DNA of 59,540 bases, the filler included, from Sphacelaria rigidula (lineage: Eukaryota): NCBI GenBank assembly GCA_964200075.2. It is 10 parts of 10 records of this genome, joined end to end, with 100 filler letters (N's around TTAATTAATTAA, not from the genome) between each part and the next. Parts side by side here need not be neighbours in the genome. Positions count along the whole stretch, not along the records: positions 47,715 to 53,577 come from CAXNAA020023886.1; 9 more parts are not named here. The stretch is one strand, 5' to 3'. The stretch's first letter is position 1, and each line of letters begins with the position of its first letter. Below are positions 2,473 through 54,630 of this stretch, one piece after another. The position numbers and the translations under genes are program-made. The notes beneath the pieces are model-generated. The model had not been told where the DNA came from. It did not search any database and was given only the letters and a program-made list of their open reading frames with translations.

Positions 2473-2838
2473 GGCCGTTTCTTCCGGTTCGTATTTTGTT
2501 TGGCTCGTCTTTTCCACTTTTAGGACGTTTGACAAGGTTTTCGACCCCCAAACAGGGAAAATCGCCACCACACGTCTTGGACACTTTGTATCACCCCACC
2601 TTGAAATACCTAGAGACTGTGCAATATATGTTTTCCTCGTATTTTTGTACAAAGGCCGCTCTCGAAATCTCTGACCCAAGCGAATCGGAAAAGGGGGCTA
2701 GGCTCCTCTCGGTGGGGTGATACAAAGTGTCCAAGACGTGTGCTGGCGATTTTCCCTGTTTGGGGGTCGAAAACCTTGTCAAACGTCCTTCAAGTGGAAA
2801 ATACGAGCCAAACAAAATACGAACCGGAAGAAACGGCC
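2473..2838. mobile_element. PIF/Harbinger (Tourist-like) MITE in an RPUSD1 intron
   Basis: About 128-bp TIRs (2473-2600 and 2711-2838) starting GGCCGTTTCTTCCGGTT; flanks TAA and TGA fit a TNA 3-bp target. Confidence 0.8.
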
Positions 2839-3019
2839 TGAGGGATGGTACAGTAGTCAGTCAGCTTCAGAAGTATGCAGAATTATTAATTTCTTAGTTT
2901 CTCGAAGATTTTCCAAATTTGTTTCGCTTGCCACCGCTCATCACAGTGACTGTTGGATTCCAAAAAATAGGTATCTGTAGACATTTTCATCCTTTCGGCA
3001 AGTATTGGAAAAAAATATA

Positions 3020-3700
3020 TCGGCGATTTTCGGGGGTCCCGCGAAAGTGCAACCCCAGATTCTAGCATTTCGGTATTATTTTCGGTGAACCGACTCGATC
3101 TCGATCATATAAGTGAGGACTCAATATATATATATATATATATTTTTTTTCCAATTTCATCCATTCAATGCGCTAAAACCGGAAACCATGTTTCTTGGAC
3201 CATTCACGGTCAATAACACCGTCCTGATAAACGGGGTCTTTACTCCGTGTCACCCCCACAGCACCAACTTGGGCATTGTGATTTGAGCACGGTCTGTTTA
3301 TTTTGCCGATACTACCGGCACTAGCACTTTCGAGTGCTCATGGAAAATGTTATGCAAAAAAAACCCCGAAAGGAGGCCACCCGCAGAAAATGCTTGACTG
3401 AGGTCTGCGCAGTATAGGAGGAAAACACGATCTCGATCGTTTTTGTGAAGAACCGTATGCGTATTAATTTATCTCAATATCTACCGTTTCGTTGCGGAAG
3501 AGCCGGGAAACTGTTTTTATTTGACCAACAATGATCACTGACACCCTCCTGATAAACGGGGTATATAGTCCGTATCACCCCCAAACAACAACTTGGGCAC
3601 TGCAATATGAGCGCGGCCTACCATTTCCCCTAAATCTACCGGTGCTAGCATTTTCAAGTAGTAATGAAGAATAGTACTCGACAAAAACTCAAGGACTACA
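3020..3700 (+). repeat. Dispersed repeat with an internal ~325-bp tandem duplication; related copy at about 48200-48540
   Basis: CCTGATAAACGGG...ACTTGGGCA...CTACCG..GCTAGCA block at about 3222, 3548 and 48383. Confidence 0.7.
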
Positions 3701-4188
3701 ACAACTACGAATTCCGAAGACTTCTGATGCTGACTACTTTTGGCACGAGAGTGGTCAAATGAACCAGGCTTTGAATTACAGTGTTTCGCACACGACCAAA
3801 ACCATTTTCTAGCGGTGTTGACTAGCGACTCGATGAAATGCGTACTTCAGGGTATGGACATACGGAGGTCAAAGTTTGCAGGCCAGTTCAACATTTGTTC
3901 CTCCTGGCCACTTGATTTCGGGTACACCTGCTGCCCAGTCACGTAATTCACGGGCAAAAATGCGCAACAAATATGGTGGATAGCACCCCGGGTGGTATCT
4001 GCTTCGTTCGATGTAGTACGGCACCCTCAAACTCAAAACTTCGGCTGATCATGCCTTCAAGAGGTGATCTATGTATGATACACGTAAATGCATGCCAGCT
4101 TCTCGTAGCCACATCTACAATATCCGATATGCTGAACTCAACCTCCACAGATGGCTCATGCTGACTGAGCAAGAGAACAAGGTCCTAC

Positions 4189-5865: not shown

Positions 5866-5965
5866 NNNNNNNNNNNNNNNNNNNNNNNNNNNNNNNNNNN
5901 NNNNNNNNNTTAATTAATTAANNNNNNNNNNNNNNNNNNNNNNNNNNNNNNNNNNNNNNNNNNNN
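5866..5965. other. Artificial contig spacer (also at 11831, 17795, 23759, 29723, 35687, 41651, 47615 and 53578)
   Basis: 100-nt N-TTAATTAATTAA-N linker with stops in all six frames, recurring every ~5964 nt. Confidence 0.99.
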
Positions 5966-11830: not shown

Positions 11831-12137
11831 NNNNNNNNNNNNNNNNNNNNNNNNNNNNNNNNNNNNNNNNNNNNTTAATTAATTAANNNNNNNNNNNNNN
11901 NNNNNNNNNNNNNNNNNNNNNNNNNNNNNNAGGGGTGGGTGTGCCTGATGAGCACCGTGCTGACCCAACTCTACCACCACACCACAGCCTGGGCCAAGGG
12001 TAGTAGTGAGAAGGAATCACTCCTTGAAGGTGATTTCGGCCCTACACCCGCCGAAAATACCCTCCCCACGCCGTACCGACAAGACCGGTCATGACCTTCG
12101 TTGGAGGACGGGGAACGGGGGCATTTAGTGTATTTGA

Positions 12138-17190: not shown

Positions 17191-19161
17191 TTGCAGGTGT
17201 GAGCACAAGTATATACCTTGAGGAGGCACGGATGCAGGTTCGATCCAAACACATTCTCATGACCTGACGTGTACCTTTCATCGATCAACCCACCCAACTT
17301 CTTCATTCAAAACTGCACACCAACAATAGTTCAATGTTGAACAGTTGTTGAGTTTGGGATCTGACGGGAAAGAAGGTACCGCTGAGTGGAAACACGAAAC
17401 ATGAGCAACCCTGTAGACCGTCAGGATGAATCACCCCTAGACTCGAGTGGACCCCCGATGGGGTTGGCGTCGGTTGGCGATGACGCTGTAAAGCACGCCA
17501 CTCACTGCGTAAGTTAGGCAACCCGGTTACCGGGGTTTTTTTTCGAGCGCTTGCGTTTTTTTTCCCAGTAACCATGATGGTAGTCGAGCTAAATCATGTT
17601 GTGCGGCGTGGGAAAACCTCAACTCCACATATTGGGGATGATCGTACCACGTAGTGGGTCTATGGTGAGACACCCAGGAGGCAGTGTATAAGCCGTGGCT
17701 GTCTCTGGAAGTGGCGATACCACAAAATAAAGCAACTCATTGTAAGCTGTCATCCAAATGCAAGATAATCAGTAGGCTTCGGGCCGAACAATCTNNNNNN
17801 NNNNNNNNNNNNNNNNNNNNNNNNNNNNNNNNNNNNNNTTAATTAATTAANNNNNNNNNNNNNNNNNNNNNNNNNNNNNNNNNNNNNNNNNNNNTTATTT
17901 CTAGTTGAAAAAACGCCAACTAATGCAACCAAATAATCGAAAATCAAATAGGACATCGTTAAGGGCTCGTACAAACAAAACGATACAGACTTATGGGACA
18001 GAGGAAGTATGCACATACGCGTCAATTTCCTTAGTTCTCGTGCTTGGCAACAAAATATTTAATTATAATTCATCGAGTGAAGACGAAGGAACGCACGATC
18101 AACGCGCATACAAAGCATCAAACACACACACGTGAGTGCCGCAACATATATCTGAATGAATATACACAGAGGAAGCACAAAACGCATAAACGGGCATGCA
18201 GAGAACACGCCCAGATATACACACTGTCGGGTTCTCGTCTTTCCCTATGCTCGAGACGTGACAGGAAGTATCAACCCTGCTCCCATGAAGAGCGGTTAGA
18301 TTAACACTATGGTTGAAGCGATTCCAACATGGCAAGCATGAAGTCATGACATTGGTTGCTCCATCTGCAACCACAAAAACGAAACCCTACGGGTTTTTCT
18401 GCATAGAGTTAAGAAAGCTATCGCACGTGTAAGGAACGTGAGCAAAGAATAGACCCGCCCAGCGTCGACAGGTTGCTGAAGAGATAACCCAACTTTGATT
18501 TGATTATAGCACATTCACTGATCCATTCCCGAAGGATCCACGCGTGGTCATTCTCCACAAGGTAGACATACCCTAGGTACACTGAAGGAAAACGCCCGCT
18601 GAAGAAGGAGGAAAGTACAGACGAAAACATATTTATGTGACAAACGGAGAAAACTGAAAAACAAACAAAAACGTTCGTGGAAACAGATTGCGGCTCAGGT
18701 ATTTCGGACTAGGACCACTTGGGCATGAGCTTTCACTCATGAGCCCTACGGAAGCAAAGCATCAATCTGCTAATGCATGACACGGAGATGGAAGAACCAG
18801 TGGAAGGGAGGGAGAGATGGAGAGAGAAGATGAGAGAACAGGGTAGGAGGGAATTACGGAAGCGATAAAGCTCAAGCAGAGAAAAGCATGTACGGTGGCA
18901 CAAGCAGGAAGACCACAAGGCCGCGAGCCAAGGGAAAGCCAGCAACCGATGAGAGAAGACAGGGGTAGACCAGCGTCCGTATTTCAACCCACTTAACCCG
19001 GCTTCCCCCAGTCATATCTTGTCGCGTGAGAGCGGGCAACTCTCTCAATCATTTCCATCCTGAATTCCTCGCGAGCAGTTGCTGTTGTTGTGTCGGCGGT
19101 GGCGGGTCTCTAACTGGCGACTCTAGACGCAGCAGCCTTTCCTTTGTGGCAAAGGTCTGAC

Positions 19162-23539: not shown

Positions 23540-24229
23540 CTGCCGACAATGCACCGAAGCGACAAAAGCGGGGTACAACACGGGACAGAAGACATACTAC
23601 GACTAAATACAAGTTGCTCCCAAATGTCGTTGTACCTCACGACACAAATGGCGTGATGTTACGAAAATAATCATATCGAGGCGAGCGCGGGGGAGGGGGG
23701 GGGGGGAAGCTAGACATTGGTTGCCTGGCTGAGGCGGAGCGACATTACACACCGAACCNNNNNNNNNNNNNNNNNNNNNNNNNNNNNNNNNNNNNNNNNN
23801 NNTTAATTAATTAANNNNNNNNNNNNNNNNNNNNNNNNNNNNNNNNNNNNNNNNNNNNTATGCGGACGCCTTCCGTGGTCACAGGCTAGCAGAAGAAACC
23901 AAAACAAAATAAGATAGATCCAGAGTAAAATGCGAACAGTTACCCGGCTTGCCAGGTAAAATGCGAACACGTCTGTGTACACGATTCGGATGACACAGTT
24001 AGGGATGCGAATCGCTCACAAAACATGAAGTTAAATTTCCCCCAAAAGTGTCACGGCTGTTCCTAATGGACAAATCAAGCTAGACAGTCAGAAACAAACA
24101 ATCCGTCCGGTCGGTTCCAAGGGAACCTCGGAAGACCTCCTGCTCAGATCACACACACTGCCGCAGGTGCATTGCTCATGGTCGACTGATTATTCATTTT
24201 TCAAGCGAAGGTTATTCCGATGCAGATGA

Positions 24230-26188: not shown

Positions 26189-27654
26189 CAGCGCCAACTC
26201 ATCTGTTCCGTCTCGTTTTGCTTACTCCCACCCCCACCNNNNNNNNNNTGGGGGAAAAGAAAGGGGGAGGGGTGTGTGGTGGGGGGGGAATTTTCGCGGG
26301 GCAGCAAGAAAACAATTCGGGGGCAACCCCCCCCCCCCCCCCCCCCCCGGTCCGCATCCCTGGGAGTGCAACTAGTTATGAAACGGTTCCCGTGTTCCGG
26401 GTATCACCGATCACCAGGCAGGTATCTTGTACGAATCATGAGGGTATCACAGGTTGTTATCAGAGTTTTGGGTATACCTGATTCGGAATACTCAGGTTTG
26501 TCTGAAGAGGCGATGTACTGACAAAACGGAGTGTACAAATCACCTATGTAAATCCTAGTACAAGCAACCTGGGTCGTACAGATCACCATCCAGCAGACTT
26601 GTACCAATCACAAGAGTCATCCAGATCGTTCATCAAGCGATGTGTACAGAGCAACCGGGGTTTTCAGGTCACTAGCCAAGAAATGTATGCTGGTCAAATG
26701 GGCCATACAGAGAATCGATTCACTCGGAGATCGCAAAGGTCTAAGATTGTGCTCTGTAGGGTATACCTGGAGGTGGGGGATTTTTGGTTGGCATACCAAG
26801 TCGTACAGGATGCGTGTCCCGAATATTACGGTATGGTTCGGCAGGGTATCGCGCTCTGTTCCGAACGATCCGTTATGGTCTGGAAGGATATTTATCGATG
26901 AAGAAAACTTTGTGATGAGTCCCCGATTTTTAGCCGGTATGCCCTACAGAACATCACCTTGCAAATGTTATATGGCTGATCGTCGAGCGCGCTTGCGGGC
27001 GCCACCCTTGCTTCATTAAGGCCGGCAGTGTTAACGTCGGTGACTTTCGCCCGGAACGTTTTAACAGACATGTGTCAATTGAGCATAGAGCCATAGCAGC
27101 TGTTGGTTCCTCCTTCATATAGTCACTGGGGCATCAACTTAATGTCACATGTGCCCGGGTTGTTGCAGTCAACCCACGGTATTGTGAGTATCCACCATGT
27201 ACCACGGTCATACAGGTCAGCAGGTGAGGAATACTCGAATACTATTTCTTCTGTAATGGGTCCGGATCATACGGGTGTGGGAAACTGTTTATTGTATACT
27301 CGATTCAGAGTCCGCAGAAAAGAGGCGGCTTTTGGTAAACATTGAATTCAAATCACACGGGTCGACGAGAAGCTGCTGCGTTTGAATGAACCAATGTATT
27401 CAGATGACAATTATGTGATATAGACATGACGCGGTTCTGCAGATCAGTTCTACATTAAAGTGTTTGAAGCGGGTCACACAGCTCGACGCTCGGCAAATAT
27501 CTGTAGGTCAAACAGGTCGTTTACATCTCCATCGGACAAACGTGCACGGGTGACAGCACACCTCGGACCGGTTATCATGCATGCCCCAAATCAGCCGACC
27601 CGAATCTTTCATAATCTGATCCGTCCGACGTGTGAATATATTATCCCGCGGTAG

Positions 27655-29645: not shown

Positions 29646-29822
29646 CCCGCCCCCCCCCCCCCCCCCCCCCCACCCCCCCAGCCCCTCCCTCCCCGCCCGC
29701 GATTGCCGCCGCGCTGCCGGGGNNNNNNNNNNNNNNNNNNNNNNNNNNNNNNNNNNNNNNNNNNNNTTAATTAATTAANNNNNNNNNNNNNNNNNNNNNN
29801 NNNNNNNNNNNNNNNNNNNNNN

Positions 29823-35686: not shown

Positions 35687-36624
35687 NNNNNNNNNNNNNN
35701 NNNNNNNNNNNNNNNNNNNNNNNNNNNNNNTTAATTAATTAANNNNNNNNNNNNNNNNNNNNNNNNNNNNNNNNNNNNNNNNNNNNGAGCTTTCAACAGG
35801 ATGCGGCGACCGGCGGGCCGCCCGCACTTGTGGCCTTGGATGATAATAATGTCCCCATCACCTTGCCACACAGCCCTTTGTGGTTGGGGTGGGCCGCCAT
35901 TTCCCACTTTGTTGCATGCAACAAATTCTTTTCAAAGGGTATTGGCGTCGCGGCGCACATACATACAGTACAGTGCAGTGCAGTGCAGTGCAGTGCAGTA
36001 CGCCTCTCCGACTGCAGCAGCAGCTGCCGCTGCACACTCCCTTGCAAGTTCTGGGCAGTTATCAGCGACGATATCAGCTGCCTATACACAGCTTGTTCAT
36101 CCTCGCCCACTACATACATGTTGACAGTGCTCTGCAAGTCATCGGCAGAGGGATAGGCAGAATTCATGGCGGTAGCTTATTTCGTCTTTCCAAGGCCCAC
36201 CTGGGTTTAGTGCCTCGTGAAAATGACCATATTGTGACATGTACACTCCTTCCCGGTTTTCCTACGCCATTCTGTGTTAGTGTAATTACTACCTGGTACG
36301 TTTTAGTGTAGACTGGCGACCCATAAAAACTCCTGGGAAACCCCGGGAACGCTAGAATAAATGCAAGTAATACGATAAGCCATGCTCCGAGCACCCTGGC
36401 TTTAGAAACCTGGGGAGGCTCATCTGGGCCAGGGATAGGGCCCCCACACTATATTTGCAGTGATATCACACTCGCCAACAGTCCCCGCGCTGGTCGTTCG
36501 GGTCTGGTCGATAAATTCCGCCTCGCCGTGATTGGGCAGGTCGCTCCCTGACTTATTTTTTTATTATTTCACTCACACATGGTCAACCTTGTGTTAGTGA
36601 GGGGTCGGTCCCATGCAAAGGGTT

Positions 36625-41345: not shown

Positions 41346-41882
41346 AAATTATCTTCCCCCCTGTTCCAGAGAACCCAAAGACCAGGATATGAACATCCCC
41401 AAACTCCACTCCTCCACCCCACACAATTACGTTCTCCTTGTCTCAACTCCCTCCCCCCCCCCAACAATAATAAAAAACACACACCCCACCCTACCTATTT
41501 GAATACTTTCTTCCTCCTGCCTTTCCCCTCTCAATTTTGAAACATCACACGTCCAACCCCACCCCACACACAACTTGAAACAGCGGATCATCTATGTTGA
41601 GGATGGAGATTTTCATTGAGGATGAGAACCCGGAGGATTAAAATCTTCGTNNNNNNNNNNNNNNNNNNNNNNNNNNNNNNNNNNNNNNNNNNNNTTAATT
41701 AATTAANNNNNNNNNNNNNNNNNNNNNNNNNNNNNNNNNNNNNNNNNNNNGTGCAAGAGAGATATGCCACTTCAACTCCATATTTTGTATGGACCCCAAA
41801 ATTCAAACTCGGCTGTCAATAGAGAAATGTGACTTAAGGCCCATTTTAGTGTTGAACCCCAAAATTCAAAATCGGCTGTTAT

Positions 41883-44935: not shown

Positions 44936-46699
44936 AACACACACCTGCATCAACTCTGCAAGAGAGCGTAGAAAAACCTCTGCCAAGATGCAAGCGGACA
45001 AAACTGAAACGAGCTTGATCTTGAAAAGGTGGTCAAAGCGACAATCTTGCCATTTCCAACCGCTGGTCGACACAGAGCCGTACACGTGACACCAGAACAT
45101 TAAATTCAAATTCCGCTAGAAAAGCTCGTATGGCTCGTGTTTTCATTCATCTAGGGTCGCGGGGAGGGCGAAAGGAAGCACACGAAATTCCAAGAAAGTA
45201 AATCTTGCCCGTCCCAAGAGAAGGATCGGCCCCGTACCTGCCCCCCCCCACGCACACACATCAATAACGAGCAAGAAGCTCCTCCCCTCAACGTGCGATC
45301 GGCGAAACATTCTCGCGGGCACGGCTGTGCGGCAAGGACCGACTACCAACAAGGGGCAGAACGAATAACACGCACGTACGCAAGACAACACACACCAAAG
45401 GACCGAAAGCCCGGCAAAACAGACCTTTTCGTCTCGCTTTCCATTCCTTAGAGCTTACACACAACATAGATTTTCTCCCTTTCCCGGCAAGCCGAAGAGC
45501 AGGTACTGTCATCTCGGAGTTGTGGATTTTTCGCCACAACCTCGAGTGTATAAAAAACACGCATCGGTCGAAAGGAGTAATCCAACGGATCAGGGCATAC
45601 ACCAAGATGCACCGAGCGCCACAACACACGTACAGGATCCATTTTTCTTTCGTGTTCATGTTGAACAACTGAAATAGGGCAAAAAATAGAGAGTAATATC
45701 AATATTTGCTCCGAGGCAAGCGGCAAATCAGCCACACCTTATCTACCCCTCGTCACACACACTTACTGACCGTTTTTTTATTCGCCTCTAAAAGTCTCCC
45801 ATCACCAAGAGTCAGACACGGCCAGTACTTTGCTGGGAAACTACCGCAGATGACCTAGCACGACAAACACTTCTTGATGGCCAGATCCCGGCAGAAAATG
45901 ACACAACGTCAAATGCCAAAACAAAACAAACCATCACCGACATCACAAATAAAGCAGCTACAAACGCATCATTTGATTTGACGCTGTATCGACTCGGACT
46001 CCTCAGAACATGAAAGCCGCTGCCCAGCTCCTACCCCGTAGATGTTCTTTCTTACGGCGAGCGGCAGTATCCGACACACAAAATCATTCCTGTTGTAGCA
46101 AGCAATCGTTAAATGACCACCCAAGTCACACGGCACTTTACAATACTGATTCCTCTTCCGAGTTAGGCCGATAAAAAAAACACGTCATGTAACTGCCCCC
46201 CCCCCCCGGCGCGCTCTTCCTCCGAGAGAGAGATCGCCTATTTACGATAAACGTTGCGGATACCCCATCGCTGTTGCCCGTGGCCCGCTGACGCCCGCCA
46301 GTCCGTAGTTTTTCAACCTTTTATACAAATTCTGAGTGCTCATCTTTTCCCCATGGTTTGTCGCTCTGTTGATGAGCATCTCCGCTGACGATAAAGGAAC
46401 AAAGTGTCGGCAAAAAGGGGGGGCGAGGGGGGAAGATGAGGAGTGAGGGTCTTCATGTTTGTCACCATCTGGCCTTATGACAAGATGTTTGGATCCTGGT
46501 GGATTTTTATTACTCGCATACATACTTCTCATCTTGTAGTAGAGGAGGGAATGGGGGGGGGGGGGGGGGAGGAAAACACACAAGAAGAAAAGGAGGCAGG
46601 GGAGAAATCAATTGGACAAAAAAAAAGCCTCNNNNNNNNNNGTTGCTGGTCTGGTGTGTTCTGTTGTGTCCTTCATTTCAGCGGAGAGGGGGGCGGGGG

Positions 46700-46742
<43 letters not shown>

Positions 46743-49535
46743 AACCCACTTGAAGGCAATGAGTCACGCGGCCAATCCATTTCAGTCTAGACAAGCCCTA
46801 GCTTGCTGCCTTGGGGTCCACCTCTTTCCTCTGCACATGCATCGAGGTGGATAAAGCAAGGAGTAAACGGAGTGAAGCAAACGGAACACATGAAACATCT
46901 CGACGTCTTCCGTAACCCTGCCGGTGCATGAACACTGCCGTGGTCAATGTATCCTGTCGAAACCTTGGCACGACAGCGGTACACTGTTACATCTATGTGC
47001 CCCTTTGGTAAGACGTCCAACTGCAAGACGGTAATCTCTGGTCGTCCAATCTTCGACCACTTTAACCCATAAGCGTTGGACGGGATTCCTGCTATAGGAA
47101 CGGTCGTGGTCAGTTCGGAACAGTTTTGACAAGAACAAAGTGAGCTGTACATGCGGCGCAGGCGCCTATTTTGTTCAATCTTGGGCTGCCTGGTGAGTGC
47201 AGTCTGCGCGACCACAAGAGAGACGATCGGATCTAGCGCACTGCTGGTACTACAATACCAGAGCATTAAGCAAGTTCGATGGCAACGTTTGGCAGACTGA
47301 TGATAAAGCTCGATTTTATTGTTACGTACTCGCTTTTTGGTTACGTCGTAGTTTTCTCCCTCTTTTTTTTTTTCAGCGAGTTTTTTTCAGTTCTGTTTTG
47401 TCCTGTGTACGTCTATCATGCGACCACCGTTGAATCCCTGGGGGCTCAGTAGAGAGAAAAAAATTGTCAGCCTCGGGAGAGTTGTGGATCAAGCAGCTGC
47501 TAAGATCGCCATATCTCAAAAAGGGAGGGGGGGGGGGGGGGGGGGGGGGGGGATCCGAGAACGGGGGGTGGGGCGGGGGAGGAGGGCGCGCGCCGCCCCC
47601 ACACAGCGGGGGGGNNNNNNNNNNNNNNNNNNNNNNNNNNNNNNNNNNNNNNNNNNNNTTAATTAATTAANNNNNNNNNNNNNNNNNNNNNNNNNNNNNN
47701 NNNNNNNNNNNNNNCATCTACTCTCCATCTCACGAAAACACTGTTTATTGCGACTATTACAGCAGACAAAATATTCCATACTGTACGCAGTACTTTTTTT
47801 ACAATAGAAGATATCGCCATTATCCAGTGTGTGGGAAATAATCCAGTCGTGGCCACAAGGTAGAGATAGCCAAGGTGAATAATGGGCGAACCTCGCTTAA
47901 GGAAACTCGTAGGAAGGGGGGGGAAAAAGGAGAACGAGGACAGAAGAGAGCAAACTGCGAACTAAAAATAAGAAAACGTAAGGCCAACCCGCACAACTAC
48001 AGCCCGGCAGGAAAAAAAAATACAGTAGTGGGCGGTCTAACTAATCATTTTGTGGCATTTTTTTATTTTTTCGTAATTGGCGATTCTCTTGGGCTTTTTA
48101 CGCTTGCCACCCCTTATCACATCGGGGATCTGAAGAAATTGGCATCCGCTCCACATTCCAAGAAGAAAAAATCAAGTGTACACAATATTGAGTGACTTAC
48201 GGGCTGACCGGTCATCGGGGGTCCTTCCACGTTTCAGCCCAGGTTCTTACACTTCTGTATTTTCGGTCGATCGAGCCCGCCCTGATCATATTTCTAAAGA
48301 AGTGTACAGTTTTATTTTTTTGAAATTCTGCCTACTCAGTGCACTAAGGCCGAAAAACTGTGTTTCACGGTCAATAGCACCCTCCTGATAAACGGGCTAC
48401 TTACTCGTTTCGCCCGGTGACACCAACTAACACTGACTTGGGCACTGTGTTTCGAAGATGATCTGTTTCTTTGTACCAAAATCTACCGATGCTAGCAATT
48501 TGAAGTTCTATCGAAGAGTAGTACGCGAGGAAAACCCCAAAACACCCCTATATAGTTAGACCGCCCACTACTGTAGAAGCAAAACGAGAGGCCTCTGCCG
48601 TACGGCTTCAGGTAGCGAGACCGTATATACAACGTCGTGAAAGCATGTGGCGGTTCAGATGTCTACGGACTACACGACCCAAGATATCTGGATACCACGC
48701 GACTCAAGATATCTGCAAGACCACACACTGGGGCAGGAATTCTCACTTACGAGCCCTGCGGGAGCGAGGCACTCGACACCAACATATGTCTGTTCTGTTT
48801 GAAGCGACTTAGTCTGTGAGTTGGAAAACGAGTGAGCTGTGGACAGAGTTTAACTTCAAAGCCAACACTATATTCGGAGACTGGGTAAGCTGCACTTGAC
48901 AGACGACGCCAGCGGTAGATACTTACAAGCTTTTCATGAGATGGCTTGGTGTCGCTCTCTTGTGTTGCTACAGTAGAAGTCATCTCCCGGCCTACTGTCA
49001 ACCCCCACACGACTCCAACCGAGGGGGGAAGGCAATTCCTCACTTGAGAAATAAATAAAAGCAAAATATCACCTACCCGCGCGGCCCCCACGACTTGACG
49101 CATCGAAATACACACGTCCAACCCCACCTGAAGGTCATGGTCTATTGCATATTAAAGGATATACTTTTCCGACCACGCATAAAAGTGCTCGCGACTCAGA
49201 GTCGGGCCCTTCAAAAAGCACGTGGGTTTCCCGACATTCCGTGTAAAAACGTATCTCAACTTTTCCCACCAAACGTGTGCCCATGCCCCGTCCTGTTCAG
49301 CCTTCAGCAAGGTAAACAAGCTGAAGAAAGCTATGCAGATCAATCAAACACTATTTAGTGCCGTGCCAAAGCCTCAACGGCTCTCGAAACATCACAATCC
49401 GTTTCAACAGGGCCAACTAAAGCCTTTTAGGCACACACGTGTCCACACGAATAATCGACTCCAACCGCCGTGAATGTCTCCCCACCCGTACACCCCTGCC
49501 CCTATCCATTCCCCGTCCACCCGAGAACAACCGGG

Positions 49536-50225
49536 TCAGCTCAGTGGCAAAGTCGGGGGTAGCGCCTGCCCCCCCTGCCCCCTGACGGCCATCATTAAGT
49601 CAGTGGCCTTCTTTTTGACTGCCGCGGCGCGCAAGTTCCCATCGACCCTCTGCAGAGCCGCAAGCCCGGCAAATGCCACCGCCTCCTTCAGCTCCAAGCT
49701 CTCTTTCCAGGCAGACGTCGCGAGCACCAGTCCTCCGACAAACGAATCGCCGGCTCCGTTAGCATTGATGCTGCTCCCCTCCCCGGAAGCATACGCCGCG
49801 GCGCGTAACTCTTGACCCACCCACGCCCCCGCCTGCCTGCGCAGAGACCCCACGGCGTTCACCCGCGATTTATCGCTCGTGACGGCCGTGTAGGACCCCT
49901 GCCCACCCAGCGTAATCGTCACGATAGCTACGCCTTTCTCCAAAAACCACTGCGCCAGCGCGCGTAGGCGTTTTTCGGTAGGGGCTGCCGCGTCTCCGTC
50001 CCCGCCCGCTGCCGCGGTCGGCTGCGGTGGGCCGACGATCGCTTCTGCTTCCTCGAGGTTAGCGTGTAGGATGTCGACGTGCTTTAGGGCGGGGCCTAAT
50101 ATGATGGAGTGGCGGGCGGCGGCATCCGCCCCCGGAGACACACCGTTGAGATCCAGGCTTACGAGCGGAGCGTTCGGGAGATCTCGCACAGACTGTAGAA
50201 CGTCCGCAAGGGCTTGTCCTTGAAT
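49536..50225 (-). CDS. PfkB kinase, terminal exon
   Basis: VSLDLN...VDILHANLEEA...VTITLGGQGS...NANGAGDSFVGG (signature 2 with catalytic Asp); TGA stop at 49536. Confidence 0.92.
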   Translation of the reverse strand: MQGQALADVLQSVRDLPNAPLVSLDLNGVSPGADAAARHSIILGPALKHVDILHANLEEAEAIVGPPQPTAAAGGDGDAAAPTEKRLRALAQWFLEKGVAIVTITLGGQGSYTAVTSDKSRVNAVGSLRRQAGAWVGQELRAAAYASGEGSSINANGAGDSFVGGLVLATSAWKESLELKEAVAFAGLAALQRVDGNLRAAAVKKKATDLMMAVRGQGGQALPPTLPLS

Positions 50226-50954
50226 CTGTTAGTTGGGGGCACCGTGAGCCCGGAGAGCAGAGCAGAGCCGAGGAGCAACATGGCGCGGTAGTAGAATGGG
50301 ATATTAAAGCAGAAGGAAACGCGAACATATGGTACGGATACAAGAGCGGCACCGTCGCTTCCCGGTGGTCTGCCTATGTGACACACCAAAAGCCGAGTAT
50401 CAGGGTATGAGGGGAGGGATGTGGGTTCAAATGGCGATAGATGGAACGCACTTTTCAGCAGAATCTATCTGCTTTCCGCCTTTGAAAGCGGGGGGACGTG
50501 AGTAGCAAAGAAGGGTCGACGAGAATGGATGGGGTGCAGCAGTGCTGGTAGTGGTTATCCAATCCTTGCCAACAGAATACCAAGCGGGTACCGGGGAATA
50601 GCGAGAGAGATCGATGGATCCCCTGAAACTACGAACGCGTCCCGAGGAAAGGGAGGTACTCAGAGTATGACGGAAAAGAACACACACACACACTGACACA
50701 CCCAACACACAAAGAATCAGCCACGGGAGCAGAGGAACCACGAAATCATCACACAACCTTGCACAATAGAGTCCCGGGCCGCGCCACTGCACCCAATCCA
50801 TTGACCGGCCAACCCGAAGAAAAGCCGAGCGAAGCTAAACCCAAGCCCCTCACTTCATGCCCCGTCTCGAAAGGAATGCGTGGTCAATGTTCGAGCGACT
50901 AAGGCAAAAAAACGATAAGTACCCCACCCCCCACTTAATTCAACGCGATGGTAC

Positions 50955-51191
50955 CTGCTTCGTGAAGTGGGGGTATCCGTAATGCACGGCAGCCACCGGA
51001 GGTCGCCCAGCCTCAGTCTGTGCGATTTTGTTGAGCGCTTCGAGGATTTCTTCAGCCTGCAGGTGATCGTTTGCGGCTAGGTTGACGAAACACCCTCGCG
51101 CGCCTGACGAAAAAATGGGCAACACGGCCATTGCTGTTTGAACGCTGGAGTCCCTTATTACGTGCGAGCAGTCCACGCCGACAGACGTCAT
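50955..51191 (-). CDS. PfkB kinase, middle exon
   Basis: GVDCSHV...TAMAVLPIFSSGARG...AAN..L...VHYGY; CAG acceptor, GTACCA donor, phase 0. Confidence 0.9.
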
Positions 51192-52285
51192 CTGGGGAAG
51201 GGTGGTAGGTAGGGGGAAGTGGACTCGTCGACAACCGTTGGAAAAAAAGTGCTCCAAACAAGCGATAGAGTTACCATAGTCTATTCTTCAATGGGCAGTT
51301 TTGATAGCTCTGCTTGGTAGGTTCCTCCGCCTGATCACCACCATCCCATTCCTGCGTGTGCATCGAACCCCGCTTCCACTGAACATGTCTTCTGTACGGT
51401 GAGTACACTGCGACATTTCGTGTTTTTTTGGATAATTTTTTAAACTGCTGTGACACGCTGAAACGCGCAGACGCTTCGGTATTCCAACGCTTTGCCTACC
51501 TCATCATCCATATTACCCTCAGGTGCTCATCAAATCCCACCATGACAATATGTATTTTTTGCGTCGTACGTATATTGCCCATGTTGACCTCGCTTTTTGA
51601 ATGTCAACCTTCCTTTTTGTTCAGGTCTTACTCGTTCGGATGGCTCACGACCCGAGGTTCGAGGTTTCCATGGTTTCCCTGTCTTCCCACACGGTGGGCA
51701 CAGCAACCAGCACCTCCACTCGCTTGTCAACGTTGGAAATCACAGAGGTACAGAGTGATGCTATGATAGCCTCCCCTCCAAGCCAACGCAAAACTGCCAC
51801 GAAAACAGTCATACGGCGCATGATAGCTGGGTCCAGACTGCAGGAAACGCCTCACTGGATGGCATTGGCGAAAACGATCCTAACCGTGGGAGTTTCTAGC
51901 TGCTCGGTGTGCTCGGCTTTTGTCGTTCGTGATTCGCATTAAAAAAAAAAATCTCCTTAAAATCAGCCACGTTTCTGGGGGGGGGGGTGCTATCTACAGT
52001 AGTGTACTCGTCCCGCTCTCGCAGGGGAATGAACTCTTGCAGCATGCTGTCATGTTTCCTCCCCAAAAATGGAGAAAACAACAAAAAAAGGCAAAGTGAG
52101 TCCATGTATCGAACCCTTGACCTCAGCAACGGGTATTCTTTGTTCCACCCATCTCAAAAACAGATGGCGGGGCGCACGGCCGGCTGATCATACCACAGTA
52201 TTGTCCACTACACTGCTCCTTCTGGCGCATAGTATTAGACCATACTCGTACAGGTCTACATATCTTGTGTGTGTTCAACACTCGC

Positions 52286-52540
52286 CTGTCTGATCATCTC
52301 ATCCCCGTGAGCATCATACCCCATCTTGGTGACGGCCGACACGCCGGGGACGCCCAGCTCCGCAAGGGCCGTGGATGTCTGAGGGCAAGACCCGCCGGGA
52401 CAGTACTTCGTTTCCTCGAATTCTCGAATCGTTTCGACCCCTCCCTCTCCCTCCCCGGAGCCGCACAGCTGCAGGTCGAGACAGCTGATGCCCGCGCATA
52501 CCACTCTTCCCGTCAGCATTTCCGCTACACCTTGCGCTCC
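52286..52540 (-). CDS. PfkB/ribokinase-family kinase, N-terminal exon of the kinase domain
   Basis: VVCAGISCLDL...PGGSCPQTSTALAELG...KMGYDAHGD (PfkB signature 1 region); phase 0; GCGAGT (GC) donor. Confidence 0.9.
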
Positions 52541-52733
52541 CTGCATGTGCTCGATTACGAGCAAATGGAAGTGCGAAGGAACTGTTCGGTCCTCTTTCAA
52601 TTATTCTGAATTGCTGTTCTATTTTGTAGCTATTCTGCGCAATACAATCAGGTTCAAAACCTCCACTTTCAACAGCGGTACAATGATCCCGAGTCGCCCA
52701 TGTTTTCTGGTCAAGCGCATCGACAAAAAGGGC

Positions 52734-52944
52734 CAAGGGCAGTTCGAGTAGAGTATACTCACTTGCGGGGTATTTTGAAAGTCGTACTTGAAATGAAAGT
52801 ACACAAATTGGGGGTAGGGTTTTAGGGATCGCTTTCCAGTTATTTTTTGGGTACGACTCCTAAGACTCTACCCTAATTTGAGTACCTCAAGTACGTCCAT
52901 CAAAATACCCCGCAATTGAGTATACTCTACTCGACCTGCCCTTG
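52734..52944. mobile_element. hAT-like MITE in the intron between the MIPS and PfkB domains
   Basis: About 45-bp TIRs starting CAAGGGCAG; 8-bp TSD AAAAGGGC / AAAAAGGC (1 mismatch). Confidence 0.85.
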
Positions 52945-53088
52945 AAAAAGGCAAACGAGTCCCCCTCTCGTCCAGCCTGCTGAAGATAACAAAAACGAAT
53001 GCCCCAGCAACTCGGCGTCAACCCACACGTGCTCATGCAGTCGCACAAGATCCAACGACAAATGTGGATGAAAACGCATAACGCGTAC

Positions 53089-53454
53089 CTCTTCCGTCAC
53101 CGAGGCAGATACCGCCTCCGGCATGACTTCCCCTGTCCCAACTGATGAAGCCTCCAGCTCCTCCTCAAGCGCGCGCATCTGTTTGAAGAACCCAGGATCT
53201 ACTCCTTGCGCGCCGCCCTCCGGCACTTTGAAGAGGTAGGCAAGGGCACGGGATACCCGATCTTGCGGGGTGCGTCGGCGCGCGAAGTAGTCGCAGAACA
53301 CGGCCGCGTCGATCATGAGGGGCACGCACAGAGCGCTGTCCATCGCCCGGGTGTAGGTGAGCATGGTGTGTGCGCAGTTCATGAAGCCGAAGGATGTGTA
53401 TTCCACGATGTCGCGTTTTTCGTCGCCCATGAGCGGTGTGTACATCACGCGGAC
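53089..53454 (-). CDS. Myo-inositol-1-phosphate synthase-like C-terminal exon of a MIPS-PfkB fusion (5' part is off the contig)
   Basis: [17 protein letters not shown]...[11 protein letters not shown]...LAYLFKVP...FKQ parallels MIPS YVPYVGDSKRAMDEYTS...DSLLAAP..LD...LSY..KAP...KQ; CAG acceptor, GTACGC donor, phase 0. Confidence 0.85.
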
Positions 53455-54160
53455 CTGTACTTTTCATTTTCCCGTTTTTGGTTATTTCGCGGGAGGGCGC
53501 GGGGGGGGGGGGGGGGGGTTACATTTTTTTTTTTCGTTTATGTGTTGGGCAGTCGCCGGGGCATCCATCTCAGAGAGNNNNNNNNNNNNNNNNNNNNNNN
53601 NNNNNNNNNNNNNNNNNNNNNTTAATTAATTAANNNNNNNNNNNNNNNNNNNNNNNNNNNNNNNNNNNNNNNNNNNNCATGATCCTTCATGTCGTAGTCA
53701 CAAGACCGGTGACCTCGTATCCCTGCAAAGCCGGGAAGGAGCACGCCGGGTTTTATCGACGGACCAGGCTCGCAATCACCAAGCGCGAAGCGCCGTAATG
53801 TGTTCGGCGGGTGGTAAGAGGGGTTTCCTGCATCCTGCTAAAGTTGTTCGGCCCGAATCGTACTAGTTATCCTGCATATGGATTTCAGCCTCGAATGGGT
53901 TTCCTCATTTTCTGGTATCGCCAACTCAGAGACGACCACGGCTTGCCCTGCCTCATGGGTGTCTCACCATGAAAACATAGCCATATGAAGACAGCATGGT
54001 ACAATCATTCTCTCTGCGCGCGCTGAGGTTCTCCATGAAATTGCGCCGAAATGCTTCTCCATCTTCCCCCTTCCGCCGACCTCATTGTTTTGTCGACATC
54101 AATGTTTTCTCCTCTCTGCCTCGATGTTGCTTTTTCCCTGCCCCTCCCGGTCGCTACTCA

Positions 54161-54630
54161 ATGATGAGACACCCATCGAGTAGCGTGGAACCCGTGGCTG
54201 TTTTTGGTCGTGGCGATACCAGAATGTGAAGCAACTCATTGCGGAGGCTGTCATCTATATGCAAGACGCGTAGCACGCGTGTGGCCGAACAATCTTAGCA
54301 GGATGCAGCTTACCCTTCGTGCGACTCGCCGAACACATCACAACGTTTCGCGCTTGGTGATTGATTGCGAGCCTGGTCCGGCGAAAACCCGGTTTGCTCC
54401 ATCCCGGCTTTGACGGGATGCGAGGTCAATGGTCTTGTGACTACGGCATGCAAGATCATGAGTACACCTCTCGGTCGGTACTCCTTCGAGGATTGGCATT
54501 GGTTGGCAACGAGGCTGTAGAACTCGCTACTCACTGCGTAAGTTAGGCAGCCAGTTTCCCGTCTTCTCTCGCCTGCGTTTTTTACGGTACCCATGATGGT
54601 GGTCGAGTTAGATCATGTTGTGCGGGGTGC
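54161..54630 (+). repeat. About 470-bp dispersed repeat; other copies at 53678-53971 (-), 17420-17610 (+) and 17662-17794 (+)
   Basis: Shared ATG.TGAGACACCCA...CCGTGG...GGCGATACCA...GGCCGAACAA and CTCACTGCGTAAGTTAGGCA...CCATGATGGT.GTCGAG.TA.ATCATGTTGTGCGG. Confidence 0.8.

What the first reader, a model, noticed from the sequence alone, without database searches (positions are those of the whole stretch)
49536..53454. Myo-inositol-1-phosphate synthase fused in frame to a complete PfkB sugar kinase
Seen: four minus-strand exons (53089-53454, 52286-52540, 50955-51191, 49536-50225) splice in phase 0 with no stop between a MIPS-like C-terminus and a full ribokinase-fold domain. The MIPS Lys/Asp/Lys motif residues (GDEK, DS, FKVP) and the kinase GAGD Asp are retained, while the PfkB GGxxxN motif reads GGSCPQ. 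Known: canonical eukaryotic MIPS/INO1 is a stand-alone enzyme, and plant and archaeal myo-inositol kinases belong to the PfkB family. Inference: a bifunctional protein that either combines de novo and salvage routes to inositol-3-phosphate or channels a sugar phosphate into a cyclitol/osmolyte pathway. The divergent MIPS (RDIVEY versus RAMDEY) suggests a specialised paralogue. I cannot tell whether this fusion has been described.
Basis: partly seen in the sequence, partly recalled or inferred. Interest (0 to 1): 0.85.

Follow-up and report, generated by a model that had tools for sequence, protein, structure and literature searches.

The report
Inositol-phosphate synthase fused to sugar kinase
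A brown-alga gene really does splice the end of its inositol-phosphate synthase onto a complete sugar-kinase domain; the same fusion is shared by brown algae, diatoms and their relatives, yet what the kinase half phosphorylates is unknown.

Summary
The four minus-strand exons (53089-53454, 52286-52540, 50955-51191, 49536-50225) join in frame into 515 codons plus a stop. In three runs that behave like RNA, one abundant contig per run joins exactly these exons. A DNA-like run keeps all three introns. The contigs continue upstream into more MIPS coding sequence that is not in the window, because the window is a chain of about 5.9-kb pieces and this piece ends at 53577.

The fusion is not peculiar to this genome. 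23 of the 120 listed relatives of the MIPS exon also carry PfkB. They include Ectocarpus (759 aa, named only "Myo-inositol-1-phosphate synthase"), Chrysoparadoxa, Phaeothamnion and, by cluster look-up, the diatom Cylindrotheca.

Catalytic motifs of both halves are kept. The kinase belongs to a PfkB subfamily found here only in red algae and ochrophytes. Its nearest solved relatives are E. coli YdjH and ribokinases, so its substrate cannot be read from homology. Six literature searches found no description of the fusion.

Verdict: a real, conserved, uncharacterised bifunctional architecture that is already on record in databases. Moderate interest.

The parts
53089..53454 (-). Last MIPS exon (122 aa). 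It holds the end of the Inos-1-P_synth insert, the C-terminal part of NAD_binding_5 (motifs GDEK, MDS, FKVP) and about 22 aa of acidic/Ser-rich linker.
   Evidence: Pfam. Relatives at E 8e-61 to 1e-39. 92-96% identity to P0005/P0010/P0021 over its first 100 aa. Covered by spliced contigs.
52541..53088 (-). The 'fusion' intron (548 nt, GT..AG) between the MIPS exon and the first PfkB exon. If unspliced, the frame would run on to a stop at 52927-52929.
   Evidence: Joint 52539|53088 (cut +1), skipping 548 nt, in X1, X3 and X8 and absent from X5. Borders. Read-through ORF 52927-53463.
52734..52944 (.). MITE-like repeat inside the fusion intron. It has 58-nt terminal inverted repeats, 91% complementary. 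The read-through stop lies inside it.
   Evidence: the repeat finder. Summed word depth up to 124,979 in X5 against about 25 in flanking bins.
52286..52540 (-). Exon holding the end of the linker and the PfkB N-terminus. It contains an in-frame Met (MLTG, 52508-52519), the first strand with the conserved Asp (CLDL, 52472-52483) and the GG motif read as GGSCPQ (52379-52396).
   Evidence: Pfam PfkB positions 3-70, E 0.024. Alignment. Motif coordinates. Contigs.
51192..52285 (-). Intron 2, 1094 nt, GC..AG.
   Evidence: Joint 51191|52286 with ends CT..GC on the + strand. Donor GCGAGT. A low-depth contig (8.28 against 205 in X1) covers 51190-51879 of it.
50955..51191 (-). Middle PfkB exon (79 aa), ending in the subfamily motif GYPH (50967-50978).
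   Evidence: Alignment to fused relatives without gaps at the junctions. Motif. Contigs.
50226..50954 (-). Intron 3, 729 nt, GT..AG. It contains a (GT)n-rich stretch.
   Evidence: Joint 50225|50955. Very high summed depth in the bin 50800-50939. Sequence read.
49536..50225 (-). Last exon (229 aa plus stop at 49536-49538), the PfkB C-terminal two thirds. Motifs: DLNG (50142-50153), NxxE as NLEE (50049-50060), GxGD as GAGD (49746-49757).
   Evidence: Pfam PfkB E 8.5e-14. Motifs. Contigs.
49400..49535 (-). Start of the 3' untranslated region. The contigs run about 880 nt further beyond the stretch that was laid.
   Evidence: Contig pieces cover 49400-50225 and the records go on (record positions 2822 to 3702 in X1).

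Best explanation
This is the 3' two thirds of a brown-alga gene for a single two-domain protein of roughly 830-900 aa. The N-terminal half is a eukaryote-type myo-inositol-3-phosphate synthase (MIPS/INO1: glucose-6-phosphate to inositol-3-phosphate, NAD-dependent). A flexible, poorly conserved linker joins it to a complete, apparently active, nucleotide-dependent PfkB (ribokinase-fold) kinase.

Shown here:
- The exons are spliced into one frame in the dominant transcript.
- The same architecture is conserved in brown algae, Chrysoparadoxa, Phaeothamnion and diatoms.
- The catalytic motifs of both halves are kept.

Inferred:
- The MIPS half is the alga's working inositol-phosphate synthase.
- The kinase half acts in the same pathway. 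Most likely it phosphorylates free myo-inositol (salvage to inositol monophosphate, as plant and archaeal PfkB inositol kinases do) or the MIPS product itself (inositol monophosphate to bisphosphate). Either way, one polypeptide would control entry into soluble inositol-phosphate metabolism.
- The substrate is a guess from the fusion logic, not from similarity.
For: One transcript and one frame:
- In each of X1, X3 and X8 a single contig at depth 148-205 joins all four exons at the predicted borders. The DNA-like run X5 has none of the joints.
- The contig's loose end beyond 53456 reads on, by my hand translation of the 30 letters, as ..APWEEDINHE. These are the residues that precede this exon in P0005, P0010 and P0021.
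- The spliced model (515 aa) aligns end to end with P0005, P0010 and P0021 with no gap at any junction.

Conservation of the fusion:
- 23 of the 120 listed relatives carry PfkB together with the MIPS match. They include Ectocarpus siliculosus, Choristocarpus, Discosporangium, Chrysoparadoxa and Phaeothamnion. Cylindrotheca closterium (1040 aa) was found by cluster look-up.
- MIPS is the only partner seen twice or more among 24 longer kinase relatives scanned: 5 of 24 have MIPS, 1 has AAA_33 and the rest have PfkB only or nothing.

MIPS half:
- The family profile A1 hits eukaryotic MIPS structures at E 4e-94 to 3e-81.
- P0005 passes both Pfam cut-offs (219 and 79.7 bits).
- Columns matching the motifs listed in PMC8287684 (passage read) are invariant in the 18 fused proteins: NHLGNND, GQTK, K309/K313, K340, D366-S367, K403.

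Kinase half:
- The N-terminal Asp, GG and N..E are invariant in the 18 fused proteins. GAGD is invariant in the 18 stand-alone relatives, stands in the consensus of the fused set, and is in the window.
- The small second residue of GxGD fits nucleotide-dependent rather than pyrophosphate-dependent members (PMC5931981, passages read).
- The AF2 model of the stand-alone relative P0123 has pLDDT 92 and aligns to E. coli ribokinase at Z 33.7, rmsd 2.7, 304 residues.

Pathway logic: archaeal and plant inositol kinases are ribokinase-family enzymes (PMC5931981; PMC6900528 and its reference list).
Against: - The upstream ~330 codons of MIPS are not in the window. Full length is inferred from relatives and from the length of the contigs.
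- The runs are 'RNA' only by the tool's guess. X1 and X8 may be the same data. Contigs hide rare isoforms.
- A minor MIPS-only form cannot be excluded. Possible routes are intron retention (depth 2.8 against 148 across the donor in X3) or a kinase-only form starting at the in-frame Met at 52517-52519.
- PMC6742357 reports Saccharina INO1 reading frames of about 536 and 595 codons, judging from their names (384-1991 and 333-2118). These are shorter than a fusion, so MIPS-only transcripts or truncated contigs may exist in kelps.
- Nothing ties the kinase to inositol except the fusion. The best solved match is YdjH (E 7.5e-28), then ribokinases. NCBIfam finds no equivalog near its cut-off: ribokinase 66.6 bits against 299.65, IolC 45.7 against 300.
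- The position that is Asn in GGxxxN is Gln in the whole subfamily.
- The kinase half evolves much faster than the MIPS tail: 67-68% against 92-96% identity to the same three proteins.
Confidence: 0.6

Rival explanations
1. The fusion is real, but the kinase half works on a sugar or polyol outside inositol metabolism (a ribokinase- or YdjH-like activity), or is mainly regulatory or structural. In that case the fusion reflects co-expression or an accident that became fixed, not a shared pathway.
For: - The nearest solved relatives are YdjH and ribokinases.
- Fold scores are tied at Z 30-34 across ribokinase, pseudouridine, adenosine and KDG kinases.
- Stand-alone members of the same subfamily exist in Galdieria, Porphyridium, Fibrocapsa, Seminavis and Amphora, so the kinase has a life of its own.
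- The kinase half diverges fast.
Against: - The fusion is kept across brown algae, Chrysoparadoxa, Phaeothamnion and diatoms.
- The catalytic Asp, GG and NxxE are conserved.
- MIPS is the only recurrent partner of this subfamily.
Confidence: 0.27
2. The MIPS-like half is a specialised paralogue that cyclises another sugar phosphate, supplied by the kinase half, into a different cyclitol.
For: - The C-terminal exon alone is only weakly like canonical MIPS structures (E 7.9e-5).
- Ser is replaced by Ala in the SGQT motif (read against the motifs in PMC8287684).
- Diatoms hold both a stand-alone form and a fused form (Cylindrotheca P0079 and P0274).
Against: - All Lys and Asp positions listed for MIPS are invariant.
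- The whole domain hits eukaryotic MIPS at E 4e-94.
- The brown-alga gene is the one treated as INO1 in the literature. Only Ec-26_005440 is named as the Ectocarpus homologue of both Saccharina copies (PMC6742357).
- I did not search any brown-alga genome for a second MIPS.
Confidence: 0.08
3. These are two adjacent genes. MIPS would end by reading into the intron (stop at 52927) and the kinase would start at its own ATG (52517-52519). The in-frame splice would then be chance.
For: - An in-frame Met precedes the first kinase strand in brown algae.
- One low-depth unspliced contig crosses the donor in X3 (depth 2.8).
- Saccharina INO1 reading frames in PMC6742357 look shorter than a fusion.
Against: - The dominant contig in all three RNA-like runs is spliced across this intron, at the same depth as the rest of the gene. 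The joint is absent from the DNA-like run.
- The Met is not kept in Chrysoparadoxa or Phaeothamnion, which are fused all the same.
- 23 of the 120 listed relatives are fused.
Confidence: 0.04

Closest known systems
Ectocarpus siliculosus predicted protein P0021 (759 aa, named 'Myo-inositol-1-phosphate synthase'). PMC6742357 cites the Ectocarpus INO1 as Ec-26_005440 / CBN77493.1. That P0021 is this record is my assumption, made from the name and species.
   Same: Same MIPS-linker-PfkB architecture (Pfam). 92% identity over the MIPS tail and 68% over the kinase domain. Aligns across every exon junction. Probably the orthologue.
   Different: The Ectocarpus model lacks the N-terminal ~60 residues seen in P0005. 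Its annotation names only the MIPS half. No function has been tested for either protein.
Canonical eukaryotic MIPS / INO1 (yeast 1JKF, C. elegans 1VKO, 9M53)
   Same: Same family. The profile hits at E 4e-94 to 3e-81 over about 380 residues. Motifs NHLGNND, GQTK, K..K, D(S/E)K and DS are kept (motif list from PMC8287684).
   Different: The canonical enzymes are stand-alone proteins of 513-537 aa (lengths). This one has no long N-terminal arm (the match starts near residue 20 of P0005 against 60-70 of the structures), reads AGQT for SGQT and DEKRDIVEY for DSK(R/V)AMDEY, and carries a ~370-aa kinase at its C-terminus.
E. coli YdjH (3H49/3IN1) and ribokinases (1RK2, 3RY7, human 5BYC)
   Same: Same PfkB fold and catalytic motifs. 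YdjH is the best solved sequence match over the whole domain (E 7.5e-28). E. coli ribokinase scores Z 33.7 and YdjH Z 32.8 against the model of the relative P0123.
   Different: Only about 20% identity. The algal subfamily has its own motifs (GGS[AC]PQ, FGYPH, DxNG) and about 60 extra residues. No substrate can be carried over.
PfkB-type myo-inositol kinases: Thermococcus kodakarensis MI3K (4XF7), Thermotoga TM0415, maize lpa3 MIK
   Same: Ribokinase-family enzymes that make inositol monophosphate (PMC5931981 passages; PMC6900528 passage and reference list). They would fit functionally beside MIPS.
   Different: No chain named inositol kinase appears among the best 60 of 72 profile matches or the 50 fold rows shown. 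The window has NANGAGD, not the RxGRGD of the pyrophosphate-dependent TM0415 type. I could not obtain plant MIK sequences for a direct comparison.

Membership tests
MIPS (inositol-3-phosphate synthase; Pfam NAD_binding_5 + Inos-1-P_synth) | Significant match to both Pfam models | tested here: met
   The window exon alone scores Inos-1-P_synth 24.7 bits (cut-off 27) and NAD_binding_5 14 bits (cut-off 25), both under the cut-offs because only the tail is present. The near-identical relative P0005 scores 219.2 and 79.7 bits. The family profile hits MIPS structures at E 4e-94.
MIPS (inositol-3-phosphate synthase; Pfam NAD_binding_5 + Inos-1-P_synth) | Conserved active-site motifs and lysines (yeast S323-T326, K369, K373, K412, K489; motifs YNHLGNNDG, FRSKEISKS, DSKVAMDEY, HNVCEDSLL, as listed in PMC8287684) | tested here: met
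   In the window: GDEK, MDS and FKVP. In 18 fused relatives these columns are invariant: N290-D296, Q265-T266-K267, K309, K313, K340, D366-S367 and K403, aligned to yeast 1JKF. Ser323 is Ala here. The match of K403 to yeast K489 rests on the Pfam alignment range, not on a residue-level alignment.
MIPS (inositol-3-phosphate synthase; Pfam NAD_binding_5 + Inos-1-P_synth) | N-terminal NAD-binding GxGGxNG and the rest of the Rossmann domain | not testable with these tools
   This part lies outside the window; the piece ends at 53577. It is present in relatives (GFGGGNG in P0005).
MIPS (inositol-3-phosphate synthase; Pfam NAD_binding_5 + Inos-1-P_synth) | Converts glucose-6-phosphate to inositol-3-phosphate | not testable with these tools
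   Needs an enzyme assay or yeast ino1 complementation.
PfkB / ribokinase family | Pfam PF00294 above the cut-off and a ribokinase fold | tested here: met
   The last exon scores 52 bits against a cut-off of 25.8. P0021 scores 92 bits over profile positions 5-290. The model of the relative P0123 (48% identical to the window's kinase) has pLDDT 92.1 and Z 33.7 to 1RK2.
PfkB / ribokinase family | Catalytic and cofactor motifs: N-terminal Asp, GG, NxxE, GxGD | tested here: met
   In the window: CLDL, GGSCPQ, NLEE and GAGD. D466, G495-G496, N664 and E667 are invariant in the 18 fused proteins. G314-A315-G316-D317 are invariant in the 18 stand-alone relatives. The Asn of GGxxxN is Gln throughout the subfamily.
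myo-Inositol kinase (PfkB-type MIK / MI3K) | Closest sequence or fold relative is a characterised inositol kinase | tested here: inconclusive
   No chain named inositol kinase appears among the best 60 of 72 profile matches or among the 50 rows of the fold comparison, where all PfkB enzymes are tied at Z 30-34.
myo-Inositol kinase (PfkB-type MIK / MI3K) | Phosphorylates myo-inositol | not testable with these tools
   Needs a kinase assay with product identification.
Pyrophosphate-dependent ribokinase-family kinases (TM0415 type) | RxGRGD motif in place of GxGD (PMC5931981) | tested here: not met
   The window reads NANGAGD. The subfamily consensus is NAxGAGD.

The most novel reading that the evidence does not exclude
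The kinase half may define a new substrate specificity in a PfkB subfamily found here only in red algae and ochrophytes (motifs GGS[AC]PQ / FGYPH / DxNG). On this reading it phosphorylates the MIPS product, or free inositol, on the same polypeptide. Ochrophyte algae would then start a lipid-independent route to inositol polyphosphates with one bifunctional enzyme, a step for which no dedicated fused enzyme is known.
Probability: 0.25. Interest if true: 0.65.

Novelty: new variant of a known kind. Interest (0 to 1): 0.45.

Why it matters
MIPS is the only de novo route to inositol and is regarded as a stand-alone enzyme. This work points to a fusion to a catalytically intact kinase, kept across brown algae, diatoms and related classes, that has gone unremarked behind the annotation "myo-inositol-1-phosphate synthase".

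It gives a concrete and cheap experiment: express the protein and test the kinase on inositol, inositol monophosphates and common sugars. The result would assign a function to an uncharacterised algal PfkB subfamily. It could also show how these ecologically dominant algae feed inositol phosphates, phosphoinositides or cyclitol solutes.

Studies that use INO1 as a marker in brown algae (for example the female-specific copy in Saccharina, PMC6742357) would need to take the second domain into account.

Tried and rejected
- Whole-genome look-up: none is held for this window, so I could not fetch the upstream MIPS exons or look for a second MIPS gene.
- Earlier findings of this scan: nothing on record.
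- The look-up of sequencing runs listed no holder on record as RNA. The RNA nature of X1, X3 and X8 is the tool's guess, which I accept because the introns are precisely removed there and not in X5.
- Substrate by homology:
  - NCBIfam: no model near its cut-off.
  - ESM Atlas: only generic bacterial PfkB clusters.
  - PDB by sequence with the last exon: only weak ribokinase hits.
  - PDB by profile: YdjH and ribokinases.
  - Foldseek and VIA-align: all PfkB enzymes tied.
  - No inositol kinase was listed in any of these. This is an absence in truncated lists, not evidence against that activity.
- Other fusion partners of the kinase subfamily: 24 longer relatives were scanned. Only MIPS recurs (5 of 24), and one has AAA_33/Zeta_toxin.
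- Prokaryote gene neighbourhoods: the scan with P0058 found no relative. The scan with alignment A3 gave one weak locus at 28% identity (L001), which was not examined further. So the 'Myxococcota' MIPS has no counterpart in the species-representative genomes, and no operon context could be used.
- A second search for long kinase relatives added no new taxa (7 hits).
- MIPS tree (FastTree; 94 of the 338 proteins then held, with rows having under 330 aa of MIPS region dropped):
  - 56 stand-alone forms make one clade (support 99) and the fused forms lie outside it.
  - 12 rows that I labelled 'alone' sit among the fused rows. Many of them are longer than the ~473-aa stand-alone forms and may be cut models. 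P0026 was mislabelled by my length rule, since it does carry PfkB.
  - I draw no conclusion on one origin against several: the tree needs at least 5 changes by its starred branches.
- Literature: six searches found no paper describing a MIPS-PfkB fusion. Subscription journals, and supplements such as S1 File of PMC6742357, were not seen.

Full report
**What the window is.** The 59,540-base window is not one continuous stretch. It is ten pieces of about 5.86 kb joined by N44-TTAATTAATTAA-N44 spacers. The finding lies in the piece 47715-53577. The MIPS-like exon begins only about 120 nt from that piece's end, so every upstream MIPS exon is missing. No whole genome is held.

**The observation.**
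Their borders are AG/GT, AG/GC, AG/GT and AG.
- Pfam places the end of Inos-1-P_synth (E 2.7e-5, 24.7 bits, just under the cut-off of 27) and the end of NAD_binding_5 (E 0.034) on exon 53089-53454. It places PfkB on exon 52286-52540 (positions 3-70, E 0.024) and on the last exon (E 8.5e-14).
- The middle exon has no Pfam hit of its own, but it aligns to the kinase part of relatives.

**Is the splice real?**
- A run search returned eight holders. Four of them were laid on 49400-53570.
- Runs X1, X3 and X8 hold 0.56-0.58 of the sampled words and are RNA only by the tool's guess. X1 and X8 may be one data set.
- Each of these three runs gives one contig (3702, 3611 and 3656 nt; depth 205, 148 and 204). 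The contig covers 49400-50225, 50955-51191, 52286-52539 and 53088-53456. Its joints skip 729, 1094 and 548 nt, with GT..AG, GC..AG and GT..AG ends on the minus strand.
- Run X5 holds 0.96 of the words at depth about 25. It covers the introns and shows none of these joints, so the joined form is not in the DNA.
- The contigs run 1046-1136 nt further upstream. My hand translation of the 30 loose letters printed for X1 continues the frame as ..APWEEDINHE, the residues that precede this exon in P0005, P0010 and P0021.
- Unspliced cover across the fusion donor is one 153-nt contig in X3, at depth 2.8 against 148.5. Contigs hide rare forms, so minor MIPS-only or kinase-only isoforms are not excluded, but the dominant transcript is the fusion.

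**Is it conserved?**
- With the MIPS exon as query and only longer proteins searched, 336 proteins scored E <= 0.001 and 120 were listed. Of those 120, 23 carry PfkB in their precomputed Pfam column.
- The fused relatives include:
  - Ectocarpus siliculosus (759 aa, named only "Myo-inositol-1-phosphate synthase");
  - two EukProt models of 827 and 896 aa;
  - partial models from Choristocarpus and Discosporangium;
  - Chrysoparadoxa (822 aa) and Phaeothamnion (857 aa);
  - several forms of about 1000 aa, whose cluster includes Cylindrotheca closterium (1040 aa).
- The window's spliced model aligns with the brown-alga proteins without a gap at any exon junction.
- The linker differs in length and sequence between taxa. 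The Met in front of the kinase is not kept in Chrysoparadoxa or Phaeothamnion.
- The window therefore comes from a brown alga and the gene is probably the orthologue of the Ectocarpus one.

**The MIPS half.**
- A profile of 18 fused proteins hits eukaryotic MIPS structures at E 4e-94 to 3e-81, and archaeal-type structures far more weakly.
- The motifs and lysines listed for yeast MIPS in PMC8287684 (one passage read) have invariant counterparts in the 18 proteins (alignment to 1JKF). Ser is replaced by Ala in SGQT.
That wording is shared by the stand-alone ~473-aa forms of Nitzschia, Cylindrotheca and Amphora (consensus DEKRDVVEY).
- In a FastTree of 94 MIPS regions, 56 stand-alone forms are one clade (support 99) and the fused forms lie outside it. 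Diatoms thus have both kinds.
- For brown algae I saw only the fused kind. PMC6742357 (passages read) names Ec-26_005440 / CBN77493.1 as the Ectocarpus homologue of both Saccharina INO1 copies and treats them simply as INO1.
- I could not search a brown-alga genome for another MIPS gene.

**The kinase half.**
- The last exon finds only 176 proteins at E <= 0.001 among 1.84 billion representatives.
- Many of these share the motifs FGYPH, D(L/V/I)NG and GAGD at fixed spacing.
- A profile of 18 stand-alone members (A2) gives scores above 260 bits only for:
  - algae: Galdieria (3 species), Fibrocapsa, Seminavis, Amphora and Octactis (Porphyridium P0147 was part of the query alignment);
  - unnamed metagenome proteins.
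- Scores then fall to 112 bits or less for further proteins, the named ones among them bacterial PfkB.
- The N-terminal Asp, GG, NxxE and GxGD are conserved. The Asn of GGxxxN is Gln in the whole subfamily.
- GAGD, with its small second residue, is the nucleotide-dependent form and not the RxGRGD of pyrophosphate-dependent members (PMC5931981).
- The nearest solved chain is E. coli YdjH (E 7.5e-28, full length), followed by ribokinases.
- An AlphaFold model of the Fibrocapsa relative P0123 (pLDDT 92.1) matches ribokinases, YdjH, pseudouridine, adenosine and KDG kinases at Z 30-34, which are all tied.
- NCBIfam and the Atlas add nothing specific.
- The kinase half is 67-68% identical to P0005, P0010 and P0021, while the MIPS tail is 92-96% identical to the same proteins.
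- The substrate therefore cannot be read from similarity. The only pointer is that MIPS is the one recurrent fusion partner (5 of 24 longer relatives).

**How it most likely works.**
- Shown: one polypeptide with an intact-looking MIPS and an intact-looking ATP-type PfkB kinase, joined by a flexible linker.
- Inferred: the MIPS half makes inositol-3-phosphate from glucose-6-phosphate.
- Inferred: the kinase half acts on the same pool. It either re-phosphorylates free inositol, as the ribokinase-family inositol kinases of Thermococcus and maize do (PMC5931981; PMC6900528 reference list), or adds a second phosphate to the MIPS product.
- My rough odds:
  - inositol-pathway kinase: about 0.6;
  - unrelated sugar kinase or regulatory domain: 0.27;
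  - a different cyclitol synthase: 0.08;
  - two separate genes: 0.04.

**Novelty.** The architecture is on record in public protein sets with Pfam domains attached, so the sequence fact is not new. Six full-text searches found no paper that mentions it, and the one brown-alga paper on INO1 that I read does not, in the passages seen. I rate it a new variant of a known kind. It is real, conserved and untested, of moderate interest, and easy to test.

Noticed in passing
whole window; spacers at 5866-5965, 11831-11930, 17795-17894, 23759-23858, 29723-29822, 35687-35786, 41651-41750, 47615-47714, 53578-53677: The window is a chain of ten pieces of about 5.86 kb, joined by N44-TTAATTAATTAA-N44 spacers. 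Features must not be read across these points. Two further 10-N gaps lie at 26239-26248 and 46632-46641.
   Followed up: partly
window 52734-52944: A MITE-like element lies inside the fusion intron. It has 58-nt terminal inverted repeats (91% complementary) with 95 nt between them. Summed word depth in the DNA-like run X5 reaches about 125,000 against about 25 nearby, so it looks like a very abundant repeat family. The stop that would end an unspliced MIPS frame (52927) lies within it. No other copy of its terminal 16-mer is in the window.
   Followed up: partly
window 51192-52285: Intron 2 of the gene is a GC-AG intron, confirmed by the spliced contigs. A separate low-depth contig (8.28 against 205 in X1) covers 51190-51879 of this intron. 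It may be unspliced precursor.
   Followed up: no
window 50800-50939: The bin inside intron 3 that holds a (GT)n-rich stretch has a huge summed depth in all runs: about 22,000 in the RNA-like runs and about 90,000 in X5. It is probably a simple repeat shared with many loci.
   Followed up: no
P0114 residues 926-985; also P0088, P0110 and P0106 (diatom-type fused proteins): The ~1000-aa forms carry an insert of about 100-150 aa after the GAGD motif of the kinase. It has a weak HMG-box match (21.6 bits against a cut-off of 25.4; PF00505 is precomputed for P0088 and P0110). A DNA-binding-like box inside a metabolic kinase is odd.
   Followed up: partly
P0010 residues 1-70: One brown-alga-like model has an N-terminal extension of about 60 aa with a hydrophobic start. 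This might be a targeting signal or a gene-model artefact. The window cannot address it.
   Followed up: no
window about 53683-53870 and 54280-54460 (next piece): By eye, two copies of an element of about 180 nt lie in opposite orientation in the neighbouring piece. They are probably another repeat family.
   Followed up: no
literature: PMC6742357: Saccharina latissima has two INO1 copies, 95% and 74% identical to the Ectocarpus gene. One of them is expressed only in females (passages read). The reading frames implied by their names are shorter than a fusion, so it is worth checking whether those transcripts include the kinase half.
   Followed up: no
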